The notes: generated by a model from the letters alone, not told the origin. 64,000 nucleotides of DNA from an uncultured archaeon (GCA_000965745.1 CP009479.1:1280001-1344000); one strand, 5' to 3'; counted from the first letter of the stretch, positions 1,961-10,250 are shown. Program-made: numbers and translations.

Positions 1961-1973
1961 TAAACTTTAAATA
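1961..1973 (+). promoter_or_regulatory. TATA box of the cox operon (probably leaderless)
   Basis: TTTAAATA at 1966-1973, about 24 nt before ATG 1997, with no SD. Confidence 0.55.
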
Positions 1974-1996: not shown

Positions 1997-4453
1997 ATGG
2001 ACATTCATGGAAGTGGATCTGGATATTCCAACCCCAGTGAAGCAAGGCCTGAGTCCTGGGTAAGAGACTGGCTGTTTACAACAGACCATAAGAAAATAGG
2101 AATATGGTACTTTGCCACAGCATTTTTCTTCTTTCTGCTTGCAGGCTCAATAGCTCTTATGATCAGGACTCAGCTCATCCTGCCAAACATGCATTTTCTG
2201 GATGCGGCCCAGTACAGTGAGGCCTTCAGCCTCCATGGTTTCACGATGATGTTATTCTTCCTGACTCCATGGAACTTTGCGTTTGGCAACTATTTTGTTC
2301 CGCTTCAGGTTGGAACCAAAAGGCTTGCTTTTCCGAAGCTGGAGTCTCTCGCATACTGGCTGTATCTGCTGGGAGGCATTCTCCTTTTCACTGGACTGTA
2401 CTACCCGGGAGGAGCTTTGAATCTTGGCTGGACACTGTACGCGCCGTTGAATCAAGACGTATTCTTCCCGAATGTAGGTGACACAATTGCACTGTTTGCC
2501 CTGATGATGGAGCTCGTAAGCCTGATCATTGCGGCCCTGAACTTCATAGTTACAATAGTTGGAAGAAGGGCCAAAGGAATGAGGATGGTAGAGGTGCCCC
2601 TGTTCACATGGGCCATACTGTTTGTTAGTGTGCTTCTATGGTTCTCGGCACCCGAGCTTCTGGGGCTTGACACTACGCTTATTCTTGATCGTGTATTCCA
2701 TTTCAGCACTCTGCTCTCTCCAGCAGGAGGGGCTCTGCTGTGGGAACTTGAATGGTGGTATTTCGGCCATCCCGAAGTTTACGTACTGGTCTTACCTGCT
2801 GCGGGTGCGATAGCTGATATGACCAGTACTTTTGCCAAACGGCCTGTATGGGGCAAGAAGATGGTGATAGGAGCCTTCGGGTTTGTGCTCTTCATGAGCA
2901 TACTTGTCTTCTTCCATCACATGTTTATGACCGGCATCCTCATGCCAATGCTTCAGAACGCTTCCGTCTGGACCGAGACCATCTCGATACCGGTGGGAGT
3001 TATCTGGCTGGCCATAGTGGGAACAGTTGTGGGAGGCAAGATCAACGCCAAGAACCCCGCCATGCTATTCATAATCGGGGCAGGAATCAATGTCCTTGTC
3101 GGAGGAACTTCGGGGGAGCTCCTGTCAGCCATTGGAATGGACGTCGGGGTTCACGGGACATTCTTCGTAGTTGGCCACTTCCACTATTTTGTTGTTGGCC
3201 TTGGAGTATTTGGGCTCATTGCAGCAACCTACTACTGGTTCCCAAAGATGACAGGGTTCATGCTGAACAGAAAACTGGGGGTGATTCATTTCATCATATC
3301 CTATATCGGCATCAACCTGCTTTACGGCCCGATGTTCTTCCTTTACAACATGCCCAGAAGGTGGGCATTATACCCGCCCGGGCTTGGATTTACGACACCA
3401 AACTTCATGGCCTCAATTGGAGCCTACATATTCGGAGGGGCACAGGTTATACTCCTGGTGAATATGATCTACACCCTTTACAGACAGGGGCCAAAAGCCC
3501 CGGACAACCCATGGGGCGGATACCAGCCGGAGTGGCTCACCACATCCCCGCCACCAGAACACAACTTTGACGGCCTGATGAACGTAAAGCACACAAAGGA
3601 AGCCATCAAGATTACGTTCGAGCCTCTGAAGAAGATCTACAAGCCTGAACTCTCACCATATCCACTGATTATCTCCGTGGGCGCGTTCATATTCTTCACG
3701 GGAGTTGCACTCTACGTGATGTATTATCCGCCGATAGTCTGGATGGTTGGAGCTGCCATAGTGGCATACGGATTCATAGGCTGGATGTACCAGTCTGCCA
3801 GGCTTAGAGACTACCTTGGCGAAGATGTGCATGAGAGGAACATGAAAGGGTTCTCAGGAATAAATCTGACAGACTTCGGAATGTTCGGGTTTATAACAGG
3901 ATTTGTCCTGTTCTTCAGTTCCTTCCTGGGAACAGGCGTATTCGGCTACCTGCAGACAAAGGCGTTCTCCATACTGGGCGCTTTCCCGTTTTCGAACGAC
4001 CCGCCACTTGCCTTGGGTTCAATAATGCCTCACTATCAGATGGCGGCTGCCACTATCCTGGCAATCGTTTCGACGGTGGGATTGGGAGTTGCCTATGAAG
4101 GAGCAAAGTTGAGAAAATACACGGCAATAAATTCGGGCCTCGGGGCAGCTGCTGTGATGATCATAGCTGTTGTTGTGATGTATCTTTCCAGTTTTGCCAT
4201 AATGGGAACGGACGGATACGGCTTCGCAGCAGCGCACAACAGCATGCTTCTGTCAACGTTCTATGACAACTTCATACCTCTGACCGCATTCTTTGTGGCT
4301 TCGGCAGCAGTTGCCATTTACATGATGATGAACGCTCTGAGGAAGAAGATCACGATGACTCCGAGAATAACGAGCATGAGGGCATTGCTGATCTTCAACA
4401 CCTTCACAACAGCATTTGCAGTGATCGCGTACATTGTAGTTGGGGCGCTATAA
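1997..4453 (+). CDS. coxA: Heme-copper oxidase subunit I fused to a divergent subunit III-like domain (SoxM/CoxAC-like)
   Basis: TDHKKIG, LHG, WYFGHPEVY, HHMF, GHFHY, MPRR, then DNPW..EW..SPPP.HNF and extra TM helices. Confidence 0.93.
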   Translation: MDIHGSGSGYSNPSEARPESWVRDWLFTTDHKKIGIWYFATAFFFFLLAGSIALMIRTQLILPNMHFLDAAQYSEAFSLHGFTMMLFFLTPWNFAFGNYFVPLQVGTKRLAFPKLESLAYWLYLLGGILLFTGLYYPGGALNLGWTLYAPLNQDVFFPNVGDTIALFALMMELVSLIIAALNFIVTIVGRRAKGMRMVEVPLFTWAILFVSVLLWFSAPELLGLDTTLILDRVFHFSTLLSPAGGALLWELEWWYFGHPEVYVLVLPAAGAIADMTSTFAKRPVWGKKMVIGAFGFVLFMSILVFFHHMFMTGILMPMLQNASVWTETISIPVGVIWLAIVGTVVGGKINAKNPAMLFIIGAGINVLVGGTSGELLSAIGMDVGVHGTFFVVGHFHYFVVGLGVFGLIAATYYWFPKMTGFMLNRKLGVIHFIISYIGINLLYGPMFFLYNMPRRWALYPPGLGFTTPNFMASIGAYIFGGAQVILLVNMIYTLYRQGPKAPDNPWGGYQPEWLTTSPPPEHNFDGLMNVKHTKEAIKITFEPLKKIYKPELSPYPLIISVGAFIFFTGVALYVMYYPPIVWMVGAAIVAYGFIGWMYQSARLRDYLGEDVHERNMKGFSGINLTDFGMFGFITGFVLFFSSFLGTGVFGYLQTKAFSILGAFPFSNDPPLALGSIMPHYQMAAATILAIVSTVGLGVAYEGAKLRKYTAINSGLGAAAVMIIAVVVMYLSSFAIMGTDGYGFAAAHNSMLLSTFYDNFIPLTAFFVASAAVAIYMMMNALRKKITMTPRITSMRALLIFNTFTTAFAVIAYIVVGAL

Positions 4454-4464
4454 GGAGGTGATCT

Positions 4465-4734
4465 TTGATAATGGAAAATAATGAAAATATGAAAAAGAAA
4501 ATGGAAACTCCGGTGAAGGAACCAACTACGCCGAAACCGGAGGAAAAATACTTCGAAGAGGAGGAGGAATATGAGGAGGCAAAGGAGCCTGTTGACGATC
4601 CTTACATCGAGGACGCCGGCACGACAAAAGGAGGCCCTTACTTCGCCTTCTTTGCAGCATTGATAGTCATGTCGCTGATGCTCGCTGTATGGCTCTTCTC
4701 AGCCCTGTACTTCGGGAGGTGGAACCTGATATGA
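4465..4734 (+). CDS. Small single-TM protein with acidic N-terminus (possible accessory oxidase subunit)
   Basis: GGAGGTGA SD, poly-Glu stretch, C-terminal TM, ATGA overlap with the next gene. Confidence 0.65.
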   Translation: MIMENNENMKKKMETPVKEPTTPKPEEKYFEEEEEYEEAKEPVDDPYIEDAGTTKGGPYFAFFAALIVMSLMLAVWLFSALYFGRWNLI

Positions 4735-5420
4735 ATACGAAAAGGGCAGCAATGATCGCTGGTGGGCTGTTTCTAGCAGTCTTTCTGGCGGCAGCTGATT
4801 TCACGATTGCGGTTCACCAGCCCACATGGCAGGACGTAGTCCCGGTGCAGCCGCAGCTTCAGCCACATTATCTCCCATGGTCCAACAACACTACCATGGG
4901 GACTGATAACGGGACAATAGCTATTCATATGAGTGCAGACCCTGGAACGCAGCCATACAACTTCAACGGCACATCCTGGGGGCGCCTGAACTACTATCTG
5001 CCTGCGCATGTGAACATCTGGCTCACTTTCACCAATAACATGAACATCTCGCACAGCGACCACCTGTTCAGGGCTCCTTCGTCCTGGAACGGACAGGAGC
5101 GCATACCGCAGGTTGCTGACCCCGGAGCGGCCGGATGGACTCAGATAGGTCCGGCAATTGGTTCGCTGCTGCCGACAACAGCTCAGTACAACAATGAAAC
5201 CGGACTGATTTCCAACACATCAGGGTACAATTCCCATTCAAATACAGTCTTCATCCCCGGGGAAAACCTGACCTCCGGGCTCTACCTGTTCATATGCGGA
5301 GTCCCGGGGCATGGTGAGGACGGGATGTATGCCTATGTCCACGTGAGCAACTCCATACAGAACCCTTACTATGTTGTTATCAACAAGGGCCTGACCTCGG
5401 GCCAGCTAGGAGGAAGATAG
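4731..5420 (+). CDS. soxE: Sulfocyanin/rusticyanin-like blue copper protein, membrane anchored
   Basis: Type-1 Cu motif 'CGVPGHGEDGM' (C-x4-H-x4-M), upstream His in 'ISHS', N-terminal anchor, SD GGAGGTG before ATG 4731. Confidence 0.88.
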   Translation: MNTKRAAMIAGGLFLAVFLAAADFTIAVHQPTWQDVVPVQPQLQPHYLPWSNNTTMGTDNGTIAIHMSADPGTQPYNFNGTSWGRLNYYLPAHVNIWLTFTNNMNISHSDHLFRAPSSWNGQERIPQVADPGAAGWTQIGPAIGSLLPTTAQYNNETGLISNTSGYNSHSNTVFIPGENLTSGLYLFICGVPGHGEDGMYAYVHVSNSIQNPYYVVINKGLTSGQLGGR

Positions 5421-5421
5421 G

Positions 5422-6351
5422 ATGGATGTAATAAGTATAGTTAACACGGTATTTGGATACAACCCGTCGTCCTTCACGAGGTCAAACTTCTGGTTTGACT
5501 TCATGAGGTACCTCATAATCGGGTTTGTAGTATCCGTAGGATTCGCCATATGGTTCTACATTGTGCACAGGAACGCGGCAAGAAGAAAGGAGGATCCAAA
5601 GGATGCAGTGAAGCCGGGCAGGATACCTTCGCCAAATGCAAGGACATACAAGAAAGTCTGGCTTGTATTCATCCTGCTGGTAATGCTGATGTTCTACAGC
5701 CTTATCGTTGCGTCTCTCCCGAATGATGCAAATGTCAGGACTCCGCCCGCATCCGTGCAGTCGCAGTACCAGCACAGCCTTAACGTATATGTCTACGGCC
5801 AGCAGTGGCAGTGGCAGTACTACATTCCGAAGTACCACCTGTGGTACCTCTACCAGACGAACCTTCCGGCCAACACGATAATCTACTTCCATGTCACGAG
5901 CCGGGACGTCATGCATGACTTTGCCGTCCCGGCTTTCAAGATAAAGGTGGATGCATTCCCGAGCCATTGGAATACAGTCTGGACAGAGGTGTCCACCCCG
6001 GGAACCTATATGGCCGAATGCATGGAATACTGCGGAATAGCTCATTATCTGATGAGATCGCCGCTGACAGTGATGACTTACGGAAACTTCACAACATGGG
6101 CACAGAACCATGCAGGCCAGAAACTGATCGGAGCCTACGGGCCATACGTTCAGGAGTCTGGCCTTCAGCCGCACACACTTCAGCACAACAACCAGGCACT
6201 TGCAAACCAGACAGCGGGCCTCCTTGGTTCGAAGAATGTAAACAGCCAGAGCAACAACACGTTCAGCGTACTTACAAAGAACCTGAACAAAGACACGCAT
6301 ACGGTAATGAGGCACATAATGGAGGACGGGTCCAGGCTATTCGAACTCTAA
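5422..6351 (+). CDS. coxB: Cytochrome c oxidase subunit II (CuA)
   Basis: Two TM helices, 'GQQWQWQY', 'SRDVMHDF', CuA 'CMEYCGIAHYLM'. Confidence 0.93.
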   Translation: MDVISIVNTVFGYNPSSFTRSNFWFDFMRYLIIGFVVSVGFAIWFYIVHRNAARRKEDPKDAVKPGRIPSPNARTYKKVWLVFILLVMLMFYSLIVASLPNDANVRTPPASVQSQYQHSLNVYVYGQQWQWQYYIPKYHLWYLYQTNLPANTIIYFHVTSRDVMHDFAVPAFKIKVDAFPSHWNTVWTEVSTPGTYMAECMEYCGIAHYLMRSPLTVMTYGNFTTWAQNHAGQKLIGAYGPYVQESGLQPHTLQHNNQALANQTAGLLGSKNVNSQSNNTFSVLTKNLNKDTHTVMRHIMEDGSRLFEL

Positions 6352-6388
6352 AATGACCGTCTCAGAAATTAACTATTTTTATTTTTTT

Positions 6389-7690
6389 GGTTCTTCCTAG
6401 TTTTGTGTGGGCTCATGGATAAAGCTCCAGATTTCCGCATTTGAAATATATTGCTGTCTTGAGATGGCCTCTGTTCCTGAATCCATACGCCATCTTCTCT
6501 ATCAGCGCGATCTTTGAATTGATTCCCTCTGCCTTTGCGTTTGTTATCCTGTGGATGAAATAGTTCAGTATCTTGTCGATGTGCATTCGCATCATCTTCG
6601 CCACCTTCTTCATTGCATCAATCGAGGAGTGCACGATCCAGGAGTGCCATCTCTTCCAGTAATCCATTGCATCCTCCATTGAGGGGAGATTCCACAGGTT
6701 CCTTATGTTCTCCTTCATGGAGTACGCCTTGCCCGTCCTTAGATCTGAATTCCTTAGCTCATTGTACCGCTCCCTGTACCTTTCGGGAAGGCGATCGCCG
6801 GAATAGAGCCATATGTACCTTGATCCTTTGAGGTCCATGATACCCTTCTTCACCAGTTCACGATTCTCCTCCTTCCTCACCGCATCAACCGCTTCATTCA
6901 CATGGCGCATGACATGAAACCTGTCGAAGACGATCTTTGAATGAGCCTGTGGTACATGCTCAAGCGTGGATGATATGTACGGATCCCACATGTCCATTGA
7001 TACCGCATCTATGCGAGATAATTCATCATCACTCATCGTTTTGTAATACTCATCGAGTGATGATTTCCTCCTGTCCATGGAGATGAACTCAACACCGCTG
7101 TTCTCCATGTCCATCACCAGCGTGATGTACTTGTGCCCCTTCCTGTACGATTTGTCATCAACGCCTATGATCCTTGGCCTTGATGTTTTCCTTGACAGTC
7201 CTCTCTTAACCGCATGATCGATGATGTTCCATGCCCGGCTCCAGGAAATGTCCATTACCCGGGTGAAATTCTCAACATCCATGTTCTGGAGCATCCTTAT
7301 GGATCTTGATTCGAATCTGAGAGTGAACCTTGATCTCTTCTCGGAGAGGGGCATGACCGCCTCTCTTATGCCATGCTCCGGACACTGTATCCTTGGTGAT
7401 CTGGCATGAATGAATGTCTTGAACCCTATGCTGTCAAGATCCCTCCAGACCCTTTCCCTCAGATGATCGTAGACCATGCACTCCCTCCTGCACTCGGGAC
7501 ATGGGAGCTTAGCTCCCCTGTCGTGTGCTATGAAGACTTCAACAACCTTGTCATTTGAATCAAGTGAAACACTCTCAACCCTCCAGGGGTTCTTGAGCCC
7601 TAAGAGCTCGGAGTACAACTGTTCAGCATCCTGCATGGCAAATATAATGAAAAGAAGGATAAAAATACCCACACATTTCTAGGATGAACC
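6389..7690 (-). mobile_element. Complete ISL3-family insertion sequence
   Basis: 23-bp imperfect terminal IRs (GGTTCTTCCTAGTTTTGTGTGGG / GGTTCATCCTAGAAATGTGTGGG). 8-bp TSD ATTTTTTT at 6381-6388 and 7691-7698. Confidence 0.92.
6413..7636 (-). CDS. ISL3-family transposase
   Basis: Zn finger CPEC...CPEH, 'IGVDD', 'SMDMW', 'FDRFH', 'TNAKAEGINSKI', 'AYGFRN'. Confidence 0.93.
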   Translation of the reverse strand: MQDAEQLYSELLGLKNPWRVESVSLDSNDKVVEVFIAHDRGAKLPCPECRRECMVYDHLRERVWRDLDSIGFKTFIHARSPRIQCPEHGIREAVMPLSEKRSRFTLRFESRSIRMLQNMDVENFTRVMDISWSRAWNIIDHAVKRGLSRKTSRPRIIGVDDKSYRKGHKYITLVMDMENSGVEFISMDRRKSSLDEYYKTMSDDELSRIDAVSMDMWDPYISSTLEHVPQAHSKIVFDRFHVMRHVNEAVDAVRKEENRELVKKGIMDLKGSRYIWLYSGDRLPERYRERYNELRNSDLRTGKAYSMKENIRNLWNLPSMEDAMDYWKRWHSWIVHSSIDAMKKVAKMMRMHIDKILNYFIHRITNAKAEGINSKIALIEKMAYGFRNRGHLKTAIYFKCGNLELYP

Positions 7691-7703: not shown

Positions 7704-9455
7704 GTGATAAGAATCTTCAGTGAACAGCCCAACAGCAGAAGCTACCCGATGCGAAGCAACGCTTCAGGGAAACAGGGACTGAAATTTGTAGCCGTCGGCA
7801 TACTGTTCTCACTCGCGCTCATGTCATACTGGTACTTTGTCCAGGACGGCGTGGCGTTCATGCAGCCAGGAAAGGTTGAAAGGCTGATGATTCTCTTCTA
7901 CATTATTTTGTCATCTTCTATTTTCATGGTCGTCCACGGCTTGAGAAAATTCTACCGCCAATATATTGAAGAAACGGCTGAAGTCCAGAAAATCGTCAGG
8001 TTTCTCACAGTATTGTACAGCATATTCTATCTCTATTTCTCCGGGATCGTAGCGTGGCAGCCGAAAATTGACTTCACAAGAGTATACGGGGTCACACACG
8101 CAACTATTATCGGCTTCCCGGCGTCCGGTTCATTCGGCCAATATCCCTCTGTAAACATTTTCGCCCCTCCATCCTGGCATCTGGGGGCGGAGGTGCTTCC
8201 CCTTGATCTCATTCTGATGTCGGTGATTATTCCCATGGTGGCGCTCAATTTCGGGATAATCCTGACAACACTGCGCAGGCACAGGCGCATGAGCAACGCA
8301 CCACTAAACAGCACAGGTGTCGCCGCAACCATATTCACTTCGTGTCCCACCTGCGCGGTGAGTGCGATAGCTTTTGGTGTCAGTGGCATAGGGGCCGCCT
8401 CATGGTATGCAACGCTCGCGTCATACCAGTACCTCTTTGTGGCCATAGTTGTCCCCCTGCTTCTGGCTCTGCCCTTCATCAATGAACCAGCATTGAAAGG
8501 TGTATGTAAAATGACTAGTTTAAGTGATAAAGGTGTTAAAAGACCGTTTCTGTCACCTGGTTATGAAGATAAGAAAATCAGGAGCGGCGTTTCAGCAAAG
8601 GATTATATCAGCCTGATGAAGCCGGGTATATCATTCCTGCTCATAGTGGAGGCTGTATCATCCTATCTAATAGCAGATTCTCTTGCAGTGGGGATTGTGA
8701 CCCTGCTGTCGCTGATAGCTGCGGGCTTCCTCTCTTCTGGAGGGTCAGCTGCCATCAATAACTTTCTGGAGAAAGACAGGGATTCCCGGATGGAAAGAAC
8801 ATCTCGGAGGCCGGTCGCATCAGAAAGGATCTCACCAGGGAAGGCTCTGGTATTCGGCATTCTGTCCATATCATTTTCCCTGGCTATTTCCGCGATATTG
8901 ATCAACCTGTTTACAGCAGTTATGATCTCCTTTGGGGCAATCTCATACATATTCCTCTACACTCTGTTTCTCAAACCCAGGACCGAGATGAACATCGTAA
9001 TTGGAGGGATAGCGGGAGTCTTTCCAGCCCTGGCGGGTTGGTCAGCGGCAACAGGGTCTATCGGACCACTCGCATTTCTCATAGGGGCAATAGTTTTTCT
9101 CTGGACTCCACCACACTTCTGGGGGCTCGCGACAAAATACAGGGATGACTACAGGCTTGCAGGTTATCCTATGCTCCCAGTGAGCAGGGACATAAAAGGA
9201 ACCGTGAGGGCAATAACAATCTGGTCTGTTCCGATGCTTGTTGCGCCATTTGTTCCACTGATAATTCCCCAGATAGGCACTCTTGGCATTATGTATTATG
9301 GGGCTGCAGCAGTGGTTACAGCCATATTTGTCAAGATCGATGTGGACATGCTCAGGGAGCCGACGGAGAAGAACGCTTTCAGGGCGTTTACCTTTTCCAT
9401 ACCGTACCTGTTTGTGATACTCCTGGCAATGATCGCGGGAACAATCACACTTTAG
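7704..9455 (+). CDS. ctaB: Heme o synthase (protoheme IX farnesyltransferase) with an N-terminal ~270-aa membrane domain carrying CPTC
   Basis: 'NNFLEKDRDSRMERTSRRP', 'YTLFLKP', 'NIVIGGIAG', 'LWTPPHFW', 'YRDDY'. Exact start uncertain. Confidence 0.9.
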   Translation: MIRIFSEQPNSRSYPMRSNASGKQGLKFVAVGILFSLALMSYWYFVQDGVAFMQPGKVERLMILFYIILSSSIFMVVHGLRKFYRQYIEETAEVQKIVRFLTVLYSIFYLYFSGIVAWQPKIDFTRVYGVTHATIIGFPASGSFGQYPSVNIFAPPSWHLGAEVLPLDLILMSVIIPMVALNFGIILTTLRRHRRMSNAPLNSTGVAATIFTSCPTCAVSAIAFGVSGIGAASWYATLASYQYLFVAIVVPLLLALPFINEPALKGVCKMTSLSDKGVKRPFLSPGYEDKKIRSGVSAKDYISLMKPGISFLLIVEAVSSYLIADSLAVGIVTLLSLIAAGFLSSGGSAAINNFLEKDRDSRMERTSRRPVASERISPGKALVFGILSISFSLAISAILINLFTAVMISFGAISYIFLYTLFLKPRTEMNIVIGGIAGVFPALAGWSAATGSIGPLAFLIGAIVFLWTPPHFWGLATKYRDDYRLAGYPMLPVSRDIKGTVRAITIWSVPMLVAPFVPLIIPQIGTLGIMYYGAAAVVTAIFVKIDVDMLREPTEKNAFRAFTFSIPYLFVILLAMIAGTITL

Positions 9456-9464
9456 TGATCTGAA

Positions 9465-10250
9465 ATGTTAGTGTATTCACTTTCCATTGCAGAAGCAATA
9501 TTCGCGGGCTCCATCATAGTCATAGGAGGGATGGTTGAGGGAACCGGAAAAGGCCTCTCTCTGGGTACAAAATGGCCTTATACCAGGAACATGCCGGGGC
9601 TTGCACTGAAGCTGGATTCAGAGGTCTGGCACAGAGTCGTTGCCACTATTCTGGGATTGAATGCGGTGGCAATACTGATACTTGGAAGGGGGGAACTTGA
9701 GATAGTGGGATTTCTCCTTGTTGCAGCTACGGCCCTCCTTGGGCTTGGGACCCTGTACACACAGGCAGGAAAAGCCCCGTCACTTATTCAGGGGACTCAT
9801 GACATTCTTGCTTACCTGACCCTGTTGACATATCTCCTGCTTGCTGTAAGCGACCCTGTCAACTTCGGCTCATTCCTCCTGCATGCCATCCCGCTTCATT
9901 CATTCCTTCTGGTCGCATTCATGGGGGGTGTAACTGCAGGCCAGAGAGGTTTTGGAAAAGCAATAGGGCAGTTTGTGGTTCCGAAGACATTTGCACAATG
10001 GGCATGGGTTGTTCATATGCTTTCTGTCCTGATCTTTATCCTGACGCTGGCGTATTTCTTCCCGAACTATGACGTGGCCTTTATCCTGACACTTGTCCAG
10101 ATGGGGGTTGGTCTTTTTTCATACCAGTCGGTCAACAAAAACCCAAAGAGGCCTGGAATGCTCATACCGACACATCAGCTTTTCTCTGTGCTGATAGTGG
10201 TATCTATATTCTTCGGCTTGTCTATAAACGTACCATTTCTTATGAAATAA
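9465..10250 (+). CDS. ctaA: Heme a synthase (CtaA/Cox15), cysteine-less type
   Basis: 'GGMVEGTGKGLSLGTKWP', 'EVWHR', further TM His residues, directly downstream of ctaB. Confidence 0.75.
   Translation: MLVYSLSIAEAIFAGSIIVIGGMVEGTGKGLSLGTKWPYTRNMPGLALKLDSEVWHRVVATILGLNAVAILILGRGELEIVGFLLVAATALLGLGTLYTQAGKAPSLIQGTHDILAYLTLLTYLLLAVSDPVNFGSFLLHAIPLHSFLLVAFMGGVTAGQRGFGKAIGQFVVPKTFAQWAWVVHMLSVLIFILTLAYFFPNYDVAFILTLVQMGVGLFSYQSVNKNPKRPGMLIPTHQLFSVLIVVSIFFGLSINVPFLMK

What the first reader, a model, noticed from the sequence alone, without database searches (positions are those of the whole stretch)
2312..5700. Oxidase keeps the A1 motif HPEVY but appears to lose both canonical proton channels
Seen by manual alignment to A-type consensus (Rhodobacter numbering). 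The D-channel loop 'GAPDMAFPRLNN' reads GTKRLAFPKLES (D132 to Arg at 2321, N139 to Glu at 2342). The K-channel helix 'IAVPTGVK' reads ISIPVGVI (T359 to Val at 2993, K362 to Ile at 3002). The subunit II K-entry 'LEIIW' reads YKKVW, the Mg ligand 'HDT' reads HGT, and 'VWxHH' reads VFFHH. All six His ligands and the cross-link Tyr remain. Inference: matching losses in two subunits suggest a rewired or non-pumping oxidase adapted to a large pH gradient and a high-potential donor.
Basis: partly seen in the sequence, partly recalled or inferred. Interest (0 to 1): 0.75.

Follow-up and report, generated by a model that had tools for sequence, protein, structure and literature searches.

The report
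Oxidase with rewired proton entry
An acid-loving archaeon's respiratory oxidase lacks the two textbook proton-entry residues, but the same replacement pair is the norm in a large bacterial oxidase group and arose here independently, so it looks like a working alternative wiring, not a loss.

Summary
The gene at 1997-4453 encodes a fused subunit I+III heme-copper oxidase of a Thermoplasmataceae archaeon. It has Arg109 for D132, Glu116 for N139, Val333 for T359 and Ile336 for K362. Subunit II has Lys77 at the K-entry Glu. All metal ligands, the cross-link Tyr and the HPEVY Glu are kept.

Most of the 'losses' are typical of the clade and already published. All archaeal fused I+III relatives lack K362 and the Mg-site Asp. 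Instead they carry a helix-VIII carboxylate, here Glu327.

The D-loop pair Arg/Glu is absent from 118 close homologues. It is, however, the consensus of a large bacterial clade, the '2TM Chloroflexi and Actinobacteria' COX1: Arg at 132 in 114 of 120, Glu at 139 in 113 of 120, and never an acid at 132. Trees and an AU test (p=0.0006) place the archaeal genus apart from that clade, so the pair arose twice.

The gene is under strong purifying selection (dN/dS 0.02-0.05). The pair mirrors the Rhodobacter D132N/N139D double mutant, which still pumps.

Best reading: a functional, sulfocyanin-fed oxidase with a relocated D-pathway carboxylate. Whether it pumps is untested. The acid-adaptation idea is not supported as stated.

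The parts
1966..1973 (+). TATA-box-like TTTAAATA, 31 nt upstream of the start codon (candidate archaeal promoter, near-leaderless transcript)
   Evidence: Read directly from the sequence. Inference only.
1997..4453 (+). Fused heme-copper oxidase subunit I+III (818 aa, SoxM-like, A family)
   Evidence: Pfam COX1 E 1.8e-106. AF2 model with pLDDT 89.8. Best PDB match is 2yev_A, the caa3 I+III fusion, over 817 columns, TM 0.84/0.88. dN/dS 0.02-0.05 against two orthologues of the same genus.
2312..2347 (+). D-pathway entrance loop, residues 106-117. Includes K108, R109 (D132 position, nt 2321-2323), E116 (N139 position, nt 2342-2344) and S117.
   Evidence: Ungapped HMMER alignment. D and N are 118/118 in close homologues. 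R 114/120 and E 113/120 in the bacterial 2TM clade. Identical in three species of the genus despite synonymous codon differences.
2510..2512 (+). E172 at the S197-equivalent position of helix IV (upper D pathway). Genus-specific acidic gain.
   Evidence: Helix register from N182 (= N207). The position is uncharged in 99% of 118 homologues.
2768..2782 (+). HPEVY motif: CuB ligand H258, D-pathway terminal Glu E260 and cross-link Tyr Y262
   Evidence: Invariant columns.
2975..3004 (+). Helix VIII K-pathway segment: E327 (353-equivalent carboxylate), V333 (T359 position) and I336 (K362 position)
   Evidence: The carboxylate sits at the 353- or the 360-equivalent, never both, in 94 of 95 K-less homologues. 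E 120/120 and I 106/120 in the bacterial clade.
3089..3091 (+). N365 in helix IX: a polar residue shared convergently with the bacterial Arg/Glu clade
   Evidence: N in 117/120 of the bacterial clade and in 2 of 118 other homologues.
3152..3160 (+). H386-G387-T388 in place of the Mg/Mn-site HDT motif
   Evidence: Gly here throughout the archaeal fused clade. Gly in 115/120 of the bacterial clade.
3644..4450 (+). Divergent subunit III-like domain (seven predicted helices)
   Evidence: No Pfam COX3 hit even at E<=5. Even so, the model aligns to the caa3 I+III chain over its whole length.
4465..4734 (+). Small single-TM protein (about 87 aa). Candidate extra oxidase subunit.
   Evidence: TM part conserved in the orthologous operon of L018. 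No family hit.
4731..5420 (+). Sulfocyanin (type-1 copper protein, SoxE). Its likely start ATG overlaps the stop of the small ORF (ATGA).
   Evidence: Pfam SoxE 1.1e-18 and TIGR03094. It carries an NFNGTS sulfocyanin motif and a Cys-His-Met copper site (motif as in PMC3750248). It is the only SoxE gene in the genome. Relatives P0010 and P0013 have a SoxE domain fused to COX1-3; P0011 and P0014 are of the same length and presumably the same.
5422..6351 (+). Subunit II with a complete CuA site (H165, C200, E202, C204, H208, M211). K77 (nt 5650-5652) sits at the K-entry Glu position.
   Evidence: TIGR02866 1.2e-34 and Pfam COX2. Alignment to 2yev_B. Motif positions. The C-terminal tail is conserved in L018.
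7704..9455 (+). Heme O synthase (CtaB, residues about 294-578) behind an unassigned 293-aa N-terminal region
   Evidence: TIGR01473 1.7e-82. This stretch is two separate ORFs in L018.
9465..10250 (+). CtaA-like membrane protein (candidate heme A synthase)
   Evidence: No Pfam or NCBIfam hit. ESM Atlas: nearest clusters are named 'cytochrome c oxidase assembly protein', with structural TM 0.79 to a COX15-CtaA cluster. A lead only.

Best explanation
This is the catalytic core operon of a working terminal oxidase of the SoxM/Ferroplasma type. It comprises a fused subunit I+III, a small membrane subunit, sulfocyanin and a CuA subunit II. Electrons probably pass sulfocyanin -> CuA -> low-spin heme -> heme a3/CuB (inferred from gene content).

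Proton input is wired in a non-textbook but recurrent way.

(a) The K pathway has no Lys or Thr and no subunit II Glu, as in all archaeal fused I+III oxidases. A helix-VIII Glu (E327), together with D274 and N365, is the candidate substitute.

(b) The D pathway still ends at the HPEVY Glu (E260) and keeps N98, N182, Y38 and S175. Its entrance carboxylate has moved from position 132 (now Arg109) one turn inward to position 139 (now Glu116). A further Glu sits at the 197-equivalent (E172).

The Arg/Glu pair is an alternative D-pathway entrance that evolved at least twice. It is functionally comparable to the engineered D132N/N139D enzyme, which keeps both activity and pumping.

Shown: the residues, their conservation, purifying selection, the convergence and the operon content. 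Inferred: that protons still enter through this pathway, that R109 and E116 interact, and the electron route. Not determined: the H+/e- stoichiometry.
For: Residue identities.

Functional constraint: dN/dS is 0.02-0.05 with saturated dS among three species of the genus. The motif is kept with different codons. All ligands are invariant.

D-pathway remnants N98, N182, Y38, S175 and E260.

The same signature (K/R131, R132, E139, I362, E353, H411-G412, N207, E286) is found in 120 bacterial COX1 sequences, with no acid at 132 in any of them. Natural Asn132/Glu139 and Gly132/Glu139 variants occur in that clade.

Convergence: the genus nests in a 99-supported archaeal clade both with and without the Ferroplasma-type branch. 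The AU test rejects union with the bacterial clade (delta lnL 62.8, p=0.0006). Further convergent positions are H66, M85, A218, E250 and N365.

Mutant precedent: N139D uncouples pumping, and D132N/N139D restores full pumping (PMC7196763).

K-less homologues carry a helix-VIII carboxylate. The SoxE-COX1-COX3 fusions seen in P0010 and P0013 tie sulfocyanin to this oxidase clade. Two Rieske-cytochrome b pairs elsewhere in the genome could feed sulfocyanin.
Against: There are no biochemical data for this enzyme or, as far as I could find, for any member of the bacterial Arg/Glu clade.

Arg, a positive charge at the channel mouth, is not the neutral Asn of the laboratory double mutant. S142 and S201 equivalents are Ala and Leu here, so the polar lining is thinner. 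A single acid at 139 or 207 uncouples pumping in model enzymes.

The geometry (R109-E116 distance, water chain) could not be examined, because model coordinates are not exposed by the tools.

Sequences in each clade are kin, so the counts overstate independent support. The AU group was defined after seeing the tree. All trees are 'quick' searches with long branches.
Confidence: 0.62

Rival explanations
1. Scalar-only oxidase. Both input pathways are functionally degraded. The enzyme reduces O2 with cytoplasmic protons reaching the site by an inefficient or different route and does not pump. This could be tolerable in an acidophile, where proton consumption alone helps pH homeostasis and the donor potential is high.
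For: D132, N139, S142, S201, K362, T359, S299 and the subunit II Glu are all replaced. N139D and N207D uncouple pumping in model enzymes (PMC7196763). The Mg-site Asp is lost, and three new acidic residues (D225, E252, E374) lie towards the outer side. A second, B-type oxidase with a standard Ser/Thr helix-VIII pattern exists in the genome.
Against: E260 and the HPEVY motif, which matter mainly for D-pathway delivery, are kept under strong purifying selection. N98, N182, Y38 and S175 are kept. The D132N/N139D precedent pumps. The same signature is the consensus of a large bacterial clade that is not confined to acidophiles. The acidophilic Ferroplasma-type sister keeps D132 and N139.
Confidence: 0.22
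2. The D-loop signature was acquired from the bacterial Arg/Glu clade by gene transfer or local recombination, not by convergence.
For: The query matches the bacterial clade at every signature position examined and at five further rare positions. The Ferroplasma sulfocyanin-oxidase cluster lies in a predicted genomic island (PMC5473848). An active IS element sits in the operon.
Against: The whole-gene AU test rejects a common clade (p=0.0006), even though the shared columns were left in the alignment. In the D-loop segment itself the query is closer to an archaeal Asp/Asn relative (P0008, 66%) than to the bacterial-type fragment (P0253, 51%). The query has no N-terminal two-helix extension and has a fused subunit III, as its archaeal relatives do.
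Confidence: 0.08
3. Neutral decay of a redundant oxidase (relaxed selection or an incipient pseudogene).
For: Very long stem branch (0.9-1.3 substitutions per site). One genome of the genus shows no match (G084). An IS element is inserted just downstream.
Against: The reading frame is intact, all ligands are kept, and dN/dS is 0.02-0.05 among three species with saturated synonymous sites. The changes cluster in one functional loop and repeat those of an independent clade.
Confidence: 0.03

Closest known systems
'2TM Chloroflexi & Actinobacteria' COX1 clade of A-family oxidases (Degli Esposti et al. 2021, PMC8239418 supplements). Here represented by P0278-P0397 from Chloroflexota, Acidimicrobiales, Streptosporangiaceae and Trebonia MAGs.
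   Same: It shares K/R131-R132, E139, I/V at 362, E at 353, H411-G412, N at the helix-IX position (query 365), D/E at 300 and an HPEVY Glu. It also keeps N207, Y33 and S200. In the paper it is described as K-channel 'modified' with the HPEVY motif.
   Different: It is bacterial. It has an N-terminal extension of about 110 residues (two extra helices), is about 640 aa long without a fused subunit III, and keeps T359. It is phylogenetically separate from the query. I found no mention of its Arg/Glu D loop in the open literature searched.
Thermoplasmatales COX1-3 of Ferroplasma/Picrophilus type, including the sulfocyanin-containing aa3 complex of Ferroplasma acidiphilum (Castelle et al. 2015, cited in PMC8239418)
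   Same: Same GTDB family. It has a fused I+III, is sulfocyanin-linked, has K362 replaced by a hydrophobic residue and the subunit II Glu replaced, and has an HG Mg motif and E at 353. It is the sister branch in my trees (SH-aLRT 84-92, with a long-branch warning).
   Different: It is only 37-39% identical. It keeps D132 and N139 but has Ile at N121, Glu at N207 and Arg at the S197 position, which is a different rewiring of the same channel. It keeps T359.
Sulfolobus acidocaldarius SoxM supercomplex (SoxM I+III fusion, SoxH, sulfocyanin SoxE, SoxF/G)
   Same: A fused I+III catalytic subunit, a CuA subunit II and sulfocyanin as the internal electron carrier.
   Different: SoxM keeps the K-pathway Lys according to the published table. 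Here the Rieske and cytochrome b genes are not in the operon but elsewhere in the genome.
Rhodobacter sphaeroides aa3 D132N/N139D double mutant
   Same: The entrance carboxylate is removed from 132 and a carboxylate is placed at 139. That enzyme regains full pumping, whereas N139D alone is uncoupled (PMC7196763).
   Different: It is engineered. It has Asn rather than Arg at 132, Asp rather than Glu at 139, and an intact K pathway and Mg site.
Thermus thermophilus caa3 oxidase, chain 2YEV_A
   Same: Best structural match to the AF2 model over the whole fused I+III chain.
   Different: It is an A2-type enzyme with canonical Asp and Lys and a fused cytochrome c on subunit II. Sequence identity is 31%.

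Membership tests
Heme-copper oxygen reductase superfamily | Six His ligands (two for the low-spin heme, one for the high-spin heme, three for CuB) and the cross-linked Tyr in helix VI | tested here: met
   H80, H396, H394, H258, H307, H308 and Y262 are invariant alignment columns. Pfam COX1 over its full length.
A family, A1 type (Pereira/Sousa definition, PMC3084760) | Glu at the end of the D channel in the helix-VI HPEV motif (P. denitrificans E278) | tested here: met
   E260 in HPEVY.
A family, A1 type (Pereira/Sousa definition, PMC3084760) | D-channel residues D124, N131, N113, N199, Y35, S134 and S193 (P. denitrificans numbering) | tested here: not met
   Definition. N113 (N98), N199 (N182) and Y35 (Y38) are kept. 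D124 is R109, N131 is E116, S134 is A119 and S193 is L176. That is 4 of 8 kept when the Glu is counted.
A family, A1 type (Pereira/Sousa definition, PMC3084760) | K-channel residues K354, T351, S291 and Y280 | tested here: not met
   I336, V333 and A273 replace three of them. Only Y262 is kept.
A family (phylogenetic sense) | Groups with A-family subunit I sequences, apart from B-type sequences | tested here: met
   Trees rooted on three or two B-type sequences place it inside the A-family clade. NCBIfam's best match is CtaD_CoxA, but below its cut-off.
Archaeal fused COX1-3 (SoxM-like) oxidases / 'Thermoplasmatales COX13' | Subunit I fused to subunit III, with no extra N-terminal helices | tested here: met
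   AF2 model with 12+7 helices. Foldseek match to 2yev_A over 817 columns. Helix I starts at residue 31.
Archaeal fused COX1-3 (SoxM-like) oxidases / 'Thermoplasmatales COX13' | K channel 'modified': Lys replaced and subunit II Glu replaced | tested here: met
   I336 and K77 of subunit II. The published table lists Leu and Phe for Ferroplasma and Picrophilus.
Archaeal fused COX1-3 (SoxM-like) oxidases / 'Thermoplasmatales COX13' | Canonical D-channel entrance (Asp132, Asn139), as in all other members sampled | tested here: not met
   118 of 118 relatives have Asp and Asn. The genus has Arg and Glu.
SoxM-type supercomplex | Sulfocyanin and a CuA subunit II encoded with the oxidase | tested here: met
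   SoxE and COX2 hits in the operon.
SoxM-type supercomplex | Rieske protein and cytochrome b as part of the complex | tested here: inconclusive
   They are not in the operon. Two Rieske-cytochrome b gene pairs lie elsewhere in the genome. Physical association cannot be tested here.
Bacterial '2TM Chloroflexi & Actinobacteria' COX1 clade | Signature residues R132, E139, E353, I/V362 and H411-G412 | tested here: met
   All are present in the query.
Bacterial '2TM Chloroflexi & Actinobacteria' COX1 clade | Two extra N-terminal transmembrane helices and common descent with the clade | tested here: not met
   There is no N-terminal extension. The AU test rejects a common clade.

The most novel reading that the evidence does not exclude
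Arg132/Glu139, together with Glu353 and a helix-IX Asn in a Lys362-less background, defines a so far undescribed, recurrent proton-input architecture of A-family oxidases. It evolved independently in bacteria and in one archaeal genus. In nature the entrance carboxylate sits at 132 or at 139 but essentially never at both. That would be the natural counterpart of the laboratory uncoupling and recoupling series, and a ready-made test of charge-balance models of pump gating.
Probability: 0.35. Interest if true: 0.7.

Novelty: new variant of a known kind. Interest (0 to 1): 0.55.

Why it matters
The D-pathway Asp and the K-pathway Lys are the two most cited functional residues of mitochondrial-type oxidases. 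Here a natural enzyme lacks both yet is clearly under selection. Its D-loop solution (Arg at the mouth, Glu in the Asn gate) turns out to be the rule in a large, uncharacterised bacterial clade, and it was reached twice.

Natural sequences thereby repeat the logic of the D132N/N139D recoupling experiment. They offer many enzymes in which to test how charge placement in the D pathway controls pumping, and whether an A-family oxidase can run on one input pathway.

For Thermoplasmataceae biology, the result separates two differently rewired sulfocyanin oxidases within one family.

Tried and rejected
(1) Alignment artefact: rejected, because the HMMER alignments are ungapped through both motifs.

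(2) 'Unique to this genus': this was my interim conclusion from the top-120 homologues and a word-indexed region search. An exhaustive phmmer search with the 47-residue D-loop segment overturned it. That search found the fragment P0253, and through it the bacterial clade.

(3) Common descent or transfer from that clade: disfavoured by the trees and the AU test.

(4) Long-branch attraction to the Ferroplasma-type branch as the reason for the archaeal placement: rejected. The placement holds with that branch removed.

(5) Pseudogene or relaxed selection: rejected by dN/dS.

(6) Measuring R109-E116-E172-E260 distances: not possible, because structure prediction returns no coordinates.

(8) Pfam COX3 and CtaA models miss the divergent subunit III domain and the CtaA-like gene. 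Structure-level evidence was used instead.

(9) Naming the organism: the genus could not be named. Only a Thermoplasmataceae MAG title was recovered for the 85% relative.

(10) Literature: I found no open-access description of the Arg/Glu loop. Subscription papers (Degli Esposti 2020 BBA; Castelle 2015; Hemp and Gennis 2008) could not be read.

Full report
WHAT IS THERE

Window 1997-6351 (+) holds a compact operon:
- an 818-aa heme-copper oxidase subunit I (Pfam COX1, E 1.8e-106) whose C-terminal 270 residues form a divergent subunit III;
- a small single-helix protein;
- a sulfocyanin;
- a CuA subunit II.

The AlphaFold model is confident (pLDDT 89.8). Its best solved match is the fused I+III chain of Thermus caa3 over the whole length (TM 0.84/0.88), although Pfam COX3 does not hit the tail.

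The likely sulfocyanin start overlaps the stop of the small ORF (ATGA), and a TATA-like box lies 31 nt upstream of the first gene. Downstream come an ISL3 transposase, heme O synthase and a CtaA-like gene.

The genome is a complete 2.23-Mb Thermoplasmataceae chromosome. The only named close relative is a Thermoplasmataceae MAG. The genome also encodes a B-type oxidase operon and two Rieske-cytochrome b pairs.

THE OBSERVATION

Gap-free HMMER alignments to solved oxidases confirm the equivalences:

| Query residue | Canonical position |
|---|---|
| R109 | D132 |
| E116 | N139 |
| V333 | T359 |
| I336 | K362 |
| G387 | Mg-site Asp |
| F305 | Trp of VWxHH |
| K77 of subunit II | K-entry Glu |

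All six His, the cross-link Tyr, the HPEVY Glu and the Arg pair above the hemes are invariant columns. By the published residue definition of A1-type channels (PMC3084760), the protein keeps 4 of 8 D-channel residues and 1 of 4 K-channel residues.

WHICH PARTS ARE ORDINARY FOR THE CLADE

In an alignment of the 118 best homologues, every archaeal fused I+III oxidase lacks K362 and the Mg-site Asp. Several close relatives also have Phe or Tyr for the Trp.

This is already in the literature. Degli Esposti et al. list Thermoplasmatales COX13 as 'K-channel: no, modified', with Leu for the Lys and Phe for the subunit II Glu in Ferroplasma and Picrophilus (PMC8239418 supplements). They also describe the same loss in acidophilic iron oxidisers (bioRxiv 10.1101/2020.03.01.968255).

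The K-less proteins are not without polar groups. Of 95 homologues without the Lys, 52 have Glu nine residues upstream (the 353-equivalent; here E327) and 42 have Asp or Glu at the 360-equivalent. None has both and one has neither. All 24 with the Lys have neither. These sequences are related, so this is a pattern, not a statistic.

WHAT IS SPECIAL, AND HOW THAT CHANGED DURING THE WORK

Asp132 and Asn139 are 118/118 in those homologues, and Asp or Glu with Asn in 75 further loci. Only the query and its genus (three species, 85-93% identical) have Arg and Glu.

Five of the 12 changes at highly conserved columns fall in this loop. A word-indexed search suggested the loop was unique.

An exhaustive phmmer search with the 47-residue loop segment then found a 295-aa fragment with the same K-R...E-S pattern. 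Its full-length relatives form a large bacterial clade: Chloroflexota, Acidimicrobiales, Streptosporangiaceae and Trebonia MAGs, about 640 aa, with an N-terminal extension. By taxa, the two extra helices and the HPEVY/K-less description, this corresponds to the published '2TM Chloroflexi & Actinobacteria' group.

Counts in 120 members:

| Position | Residues found |
|---|---|
| 131 | Lys or Arg in all |
| 132 | Arg 114, Gly 3, Asn 3; never an acid |
| 139 | Glu 113, Ser 7 |
| 362 | Ile 106, Val 12 |
| 353 | Glu 120 |
| Mg motif | His-Gly in 115 |
| N207, Y33 and the HPEVY Glu | kept |

The query matches all of these. It also shares five otherwise rare residues with that clade, notably Asn365 in helix IX (117/120 in the bacterial clade against 2/118 in the others).

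CONVERGENCE, NOT COMMON DESCENT

In IQ-TREE analyses (LG+C20 PMSF, quick search) the bacterial Arg/Glu clade is a separate, well-supported branch. The query genus is nested in a 99-supported clade of archaeal fused oxidases that all have Asp and Asn. This holds with or without the long Ferroplasma-type branch.

Forcing the genus and the bacterial clade together costs 62.8 log-likelihood units (AU p=0.0006), even though the shared columns were left in. Within the loop segment the query is closer to an archaeal Asp/Asn relative (66%) than to the bacterial-type fragment (51%).

Caveats: the tested group was defined after the tree was seen, and long branches are involved.

IS IT FUNCTIONAL?

Among the three species of the genus, dN/dS is 0.02-0.05 with saturated synonymous sites. 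The loop is kept with different codons. The stem branch is very long (about 1 substitution per site). This fits a burst of change followed by tight constraint.

Other genus-specific gains of charge at positions uncharged in at least 95% of relatives are all acidic. E172 sits at the 197-equivalent in the upper D pathway. D225, E252 and E374 lie towards the outer side, near the lost Mg site. Their role is unexplained.

MECHANISM

Established knowledge: D132 is the D-pathway entrance, and N121, N139 and N207 form its neck. N139D or N207D abolishes pumping while turnover continues. D132N nearly abolishes activity. D132N/N139D restores full pumping (PMC7196763).

The natural pattern found here says the same thing. 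The carboxylate is at 132 or at 139, and essentially never at both (the one exception is a fragment, P0235). The bacterial clade even contains natural Asn132/Glu139 enzymes.

I therefore read R109/E116 as a relocated entrance carboxylate, with an Arg partner, feeding the retained N98/N182/S175 neck and E260. I read E327/D274/N365 as the clade's substitute for the Lys pathway. That protons use these routes, and that R109 pairs with E116, are inferences. Coordinates of the model were not available to measure anything. Pumping stoichiometry is open.

Electron entry through sulfocyanin is supported by the operon. It is also supported by the relatives P0010 and P0013, in which a sulfocyanin domain is fused to COX1-3.

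The sister lineage in the same acidophilic family (Ferroplasma/Picrophilus type) keeps D132 and N139. It has instead Ile at N121, Glu at N207 and Arg at the 197-equivalent. The Arg/Glu solution dominates a bacterial clade whose named members are not all acidophiles. So extreme acidity alone does not explain the pair, and a non-pumping enzyme is possible but not indicated.

NOVELTY

The oxidase type, its K-pathway state and its sulfocyanin partner are known. I did not find the Arg132/Glu139 entrance, its dominance in the bacterial 2TM clade or its independent origin in an archaeal genus in the searchable literature. One supplement legend even states that no significant D-channel change was seen among the bacterial proteins analysed. 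Subscription papers could not be checked.

I class it as a new variant of a known kind, of moderate to good interest to oxidase specialists. Other first-stage notes of this scan flagged the same stretch. Their follow-ups were withheld.

Noticed in passing
window 6387-7690 (transposase ORF 6413-7672, minus strand): An ISL3-family insertion sequence sits between subunit II and the heme-synthesis genes. There are four copies at 99.6% identity or more in the genome, so it was recently active. It is absent from the syntenic site of the related MAG (L018).
   Followed up: partly
window 7704-9455: Heme O synthase is read as one 583-aa ORF together with an unassigned 293-aa N-terminal membrane region. 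In L018 the two parts are separate ORFs of 294 and 279 aa.
   Followed up: partly
window 9465-10250: This 261-aa membrane protein has no Pfam or NCBIfam hit. In the ESM Atlas it resembles 'cytochrome c oxidase assembly protein' clusters and has TM 0.79 to a COX15-CtaA cluster, so it is a candidate divergent heme A synthase. The Pfam CtaA model finds nothing in the genome, and its control run also misses Sulfolobus.
   Followed up: partly
loci L006-L015 (same family, Ferroplasma/Picrophilus-type COX1-3): This is a second, different rewiring of the D pathway. Asp132 and Asn139 are kept, but Asn121 is Ile, Asn207 is Glu and the 197-equivalent is Arg. Asn207-to-Asp is an uncoupling mutation in model enzymes.
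   Followed up: partly
proteins P0010-P0014 (nearest archaeal relatives, 1034-1041 aa): Triple fusions: an N-terminal sulfocyanin (SoxE) domain at about residues 77-181, followed by COX1 and a subunit III-like tail. Pfam confirmed this for P0010 and P0013 only. Their helix VIII has Asp at the 360-equivalent.
   Followed up: partly
proteins P0007-P0124 (alignment): In oxidases lacking Lys362 a carboxylate sits at the 353-equivalent (52) or the 360-equivalent (42), never at both, and only one has neither. None of the 24 Lys-containing sequences has either.
   Followed up: partly
proteins P0348, P0359, P0371; P0321, P0345, P0346; P0316 and six others; P0235: These are natural variants inside or near the bacterial clade: Asn132/Glu139 (the natural form of the laboratory double mutant), Gly132/Glu139 and Arg132/Ser139. 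One fragment has Asp at both 132 and 139.
   Followed up: no
protein P0130 (JGI metagenome, 639 aa, annotated I+III): An independent HPEVY oxidase on a long branch. It has Asn at 132, Val at 139, Val at 121, Ser at 207 and Gln at 362. This is another natural enzyme without either pivot residue.
   Followed up: no
window residues E172 (2510), D225 (2669), E252 (2750), E374 (3116) of the oxidase: All genus-specific gains of charge at positions uncharged in at least 95% of relatives are acidic. Three of them lie towards the outer side, near the lost Mg site. A conserved Arg/Lys at position 421 is lost. The role of these changes is unexplained.
   Followed up: no
L002 (G000:C1:1367134-1371456, about 25 kb beyond the window's end): A second terminal oxidase operon of B type: a 148-aa CuA subunit II, a 562-aa subunit I with HPIVY and a Ser/Thr helix-VIII pattern, a second blue copper protein and a second heme O synthase-like gene.
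   Followed up: partly
L101 and L102 (G000:C1 about 685 kb and 2148 kb): Two paralogous Rieske-cytochrome b gene pairs. One has an upstream protein with a weak cupredoxin-like hit. They are possible quinol-oxidising partners for the two oxidases.
   Followed up: partly
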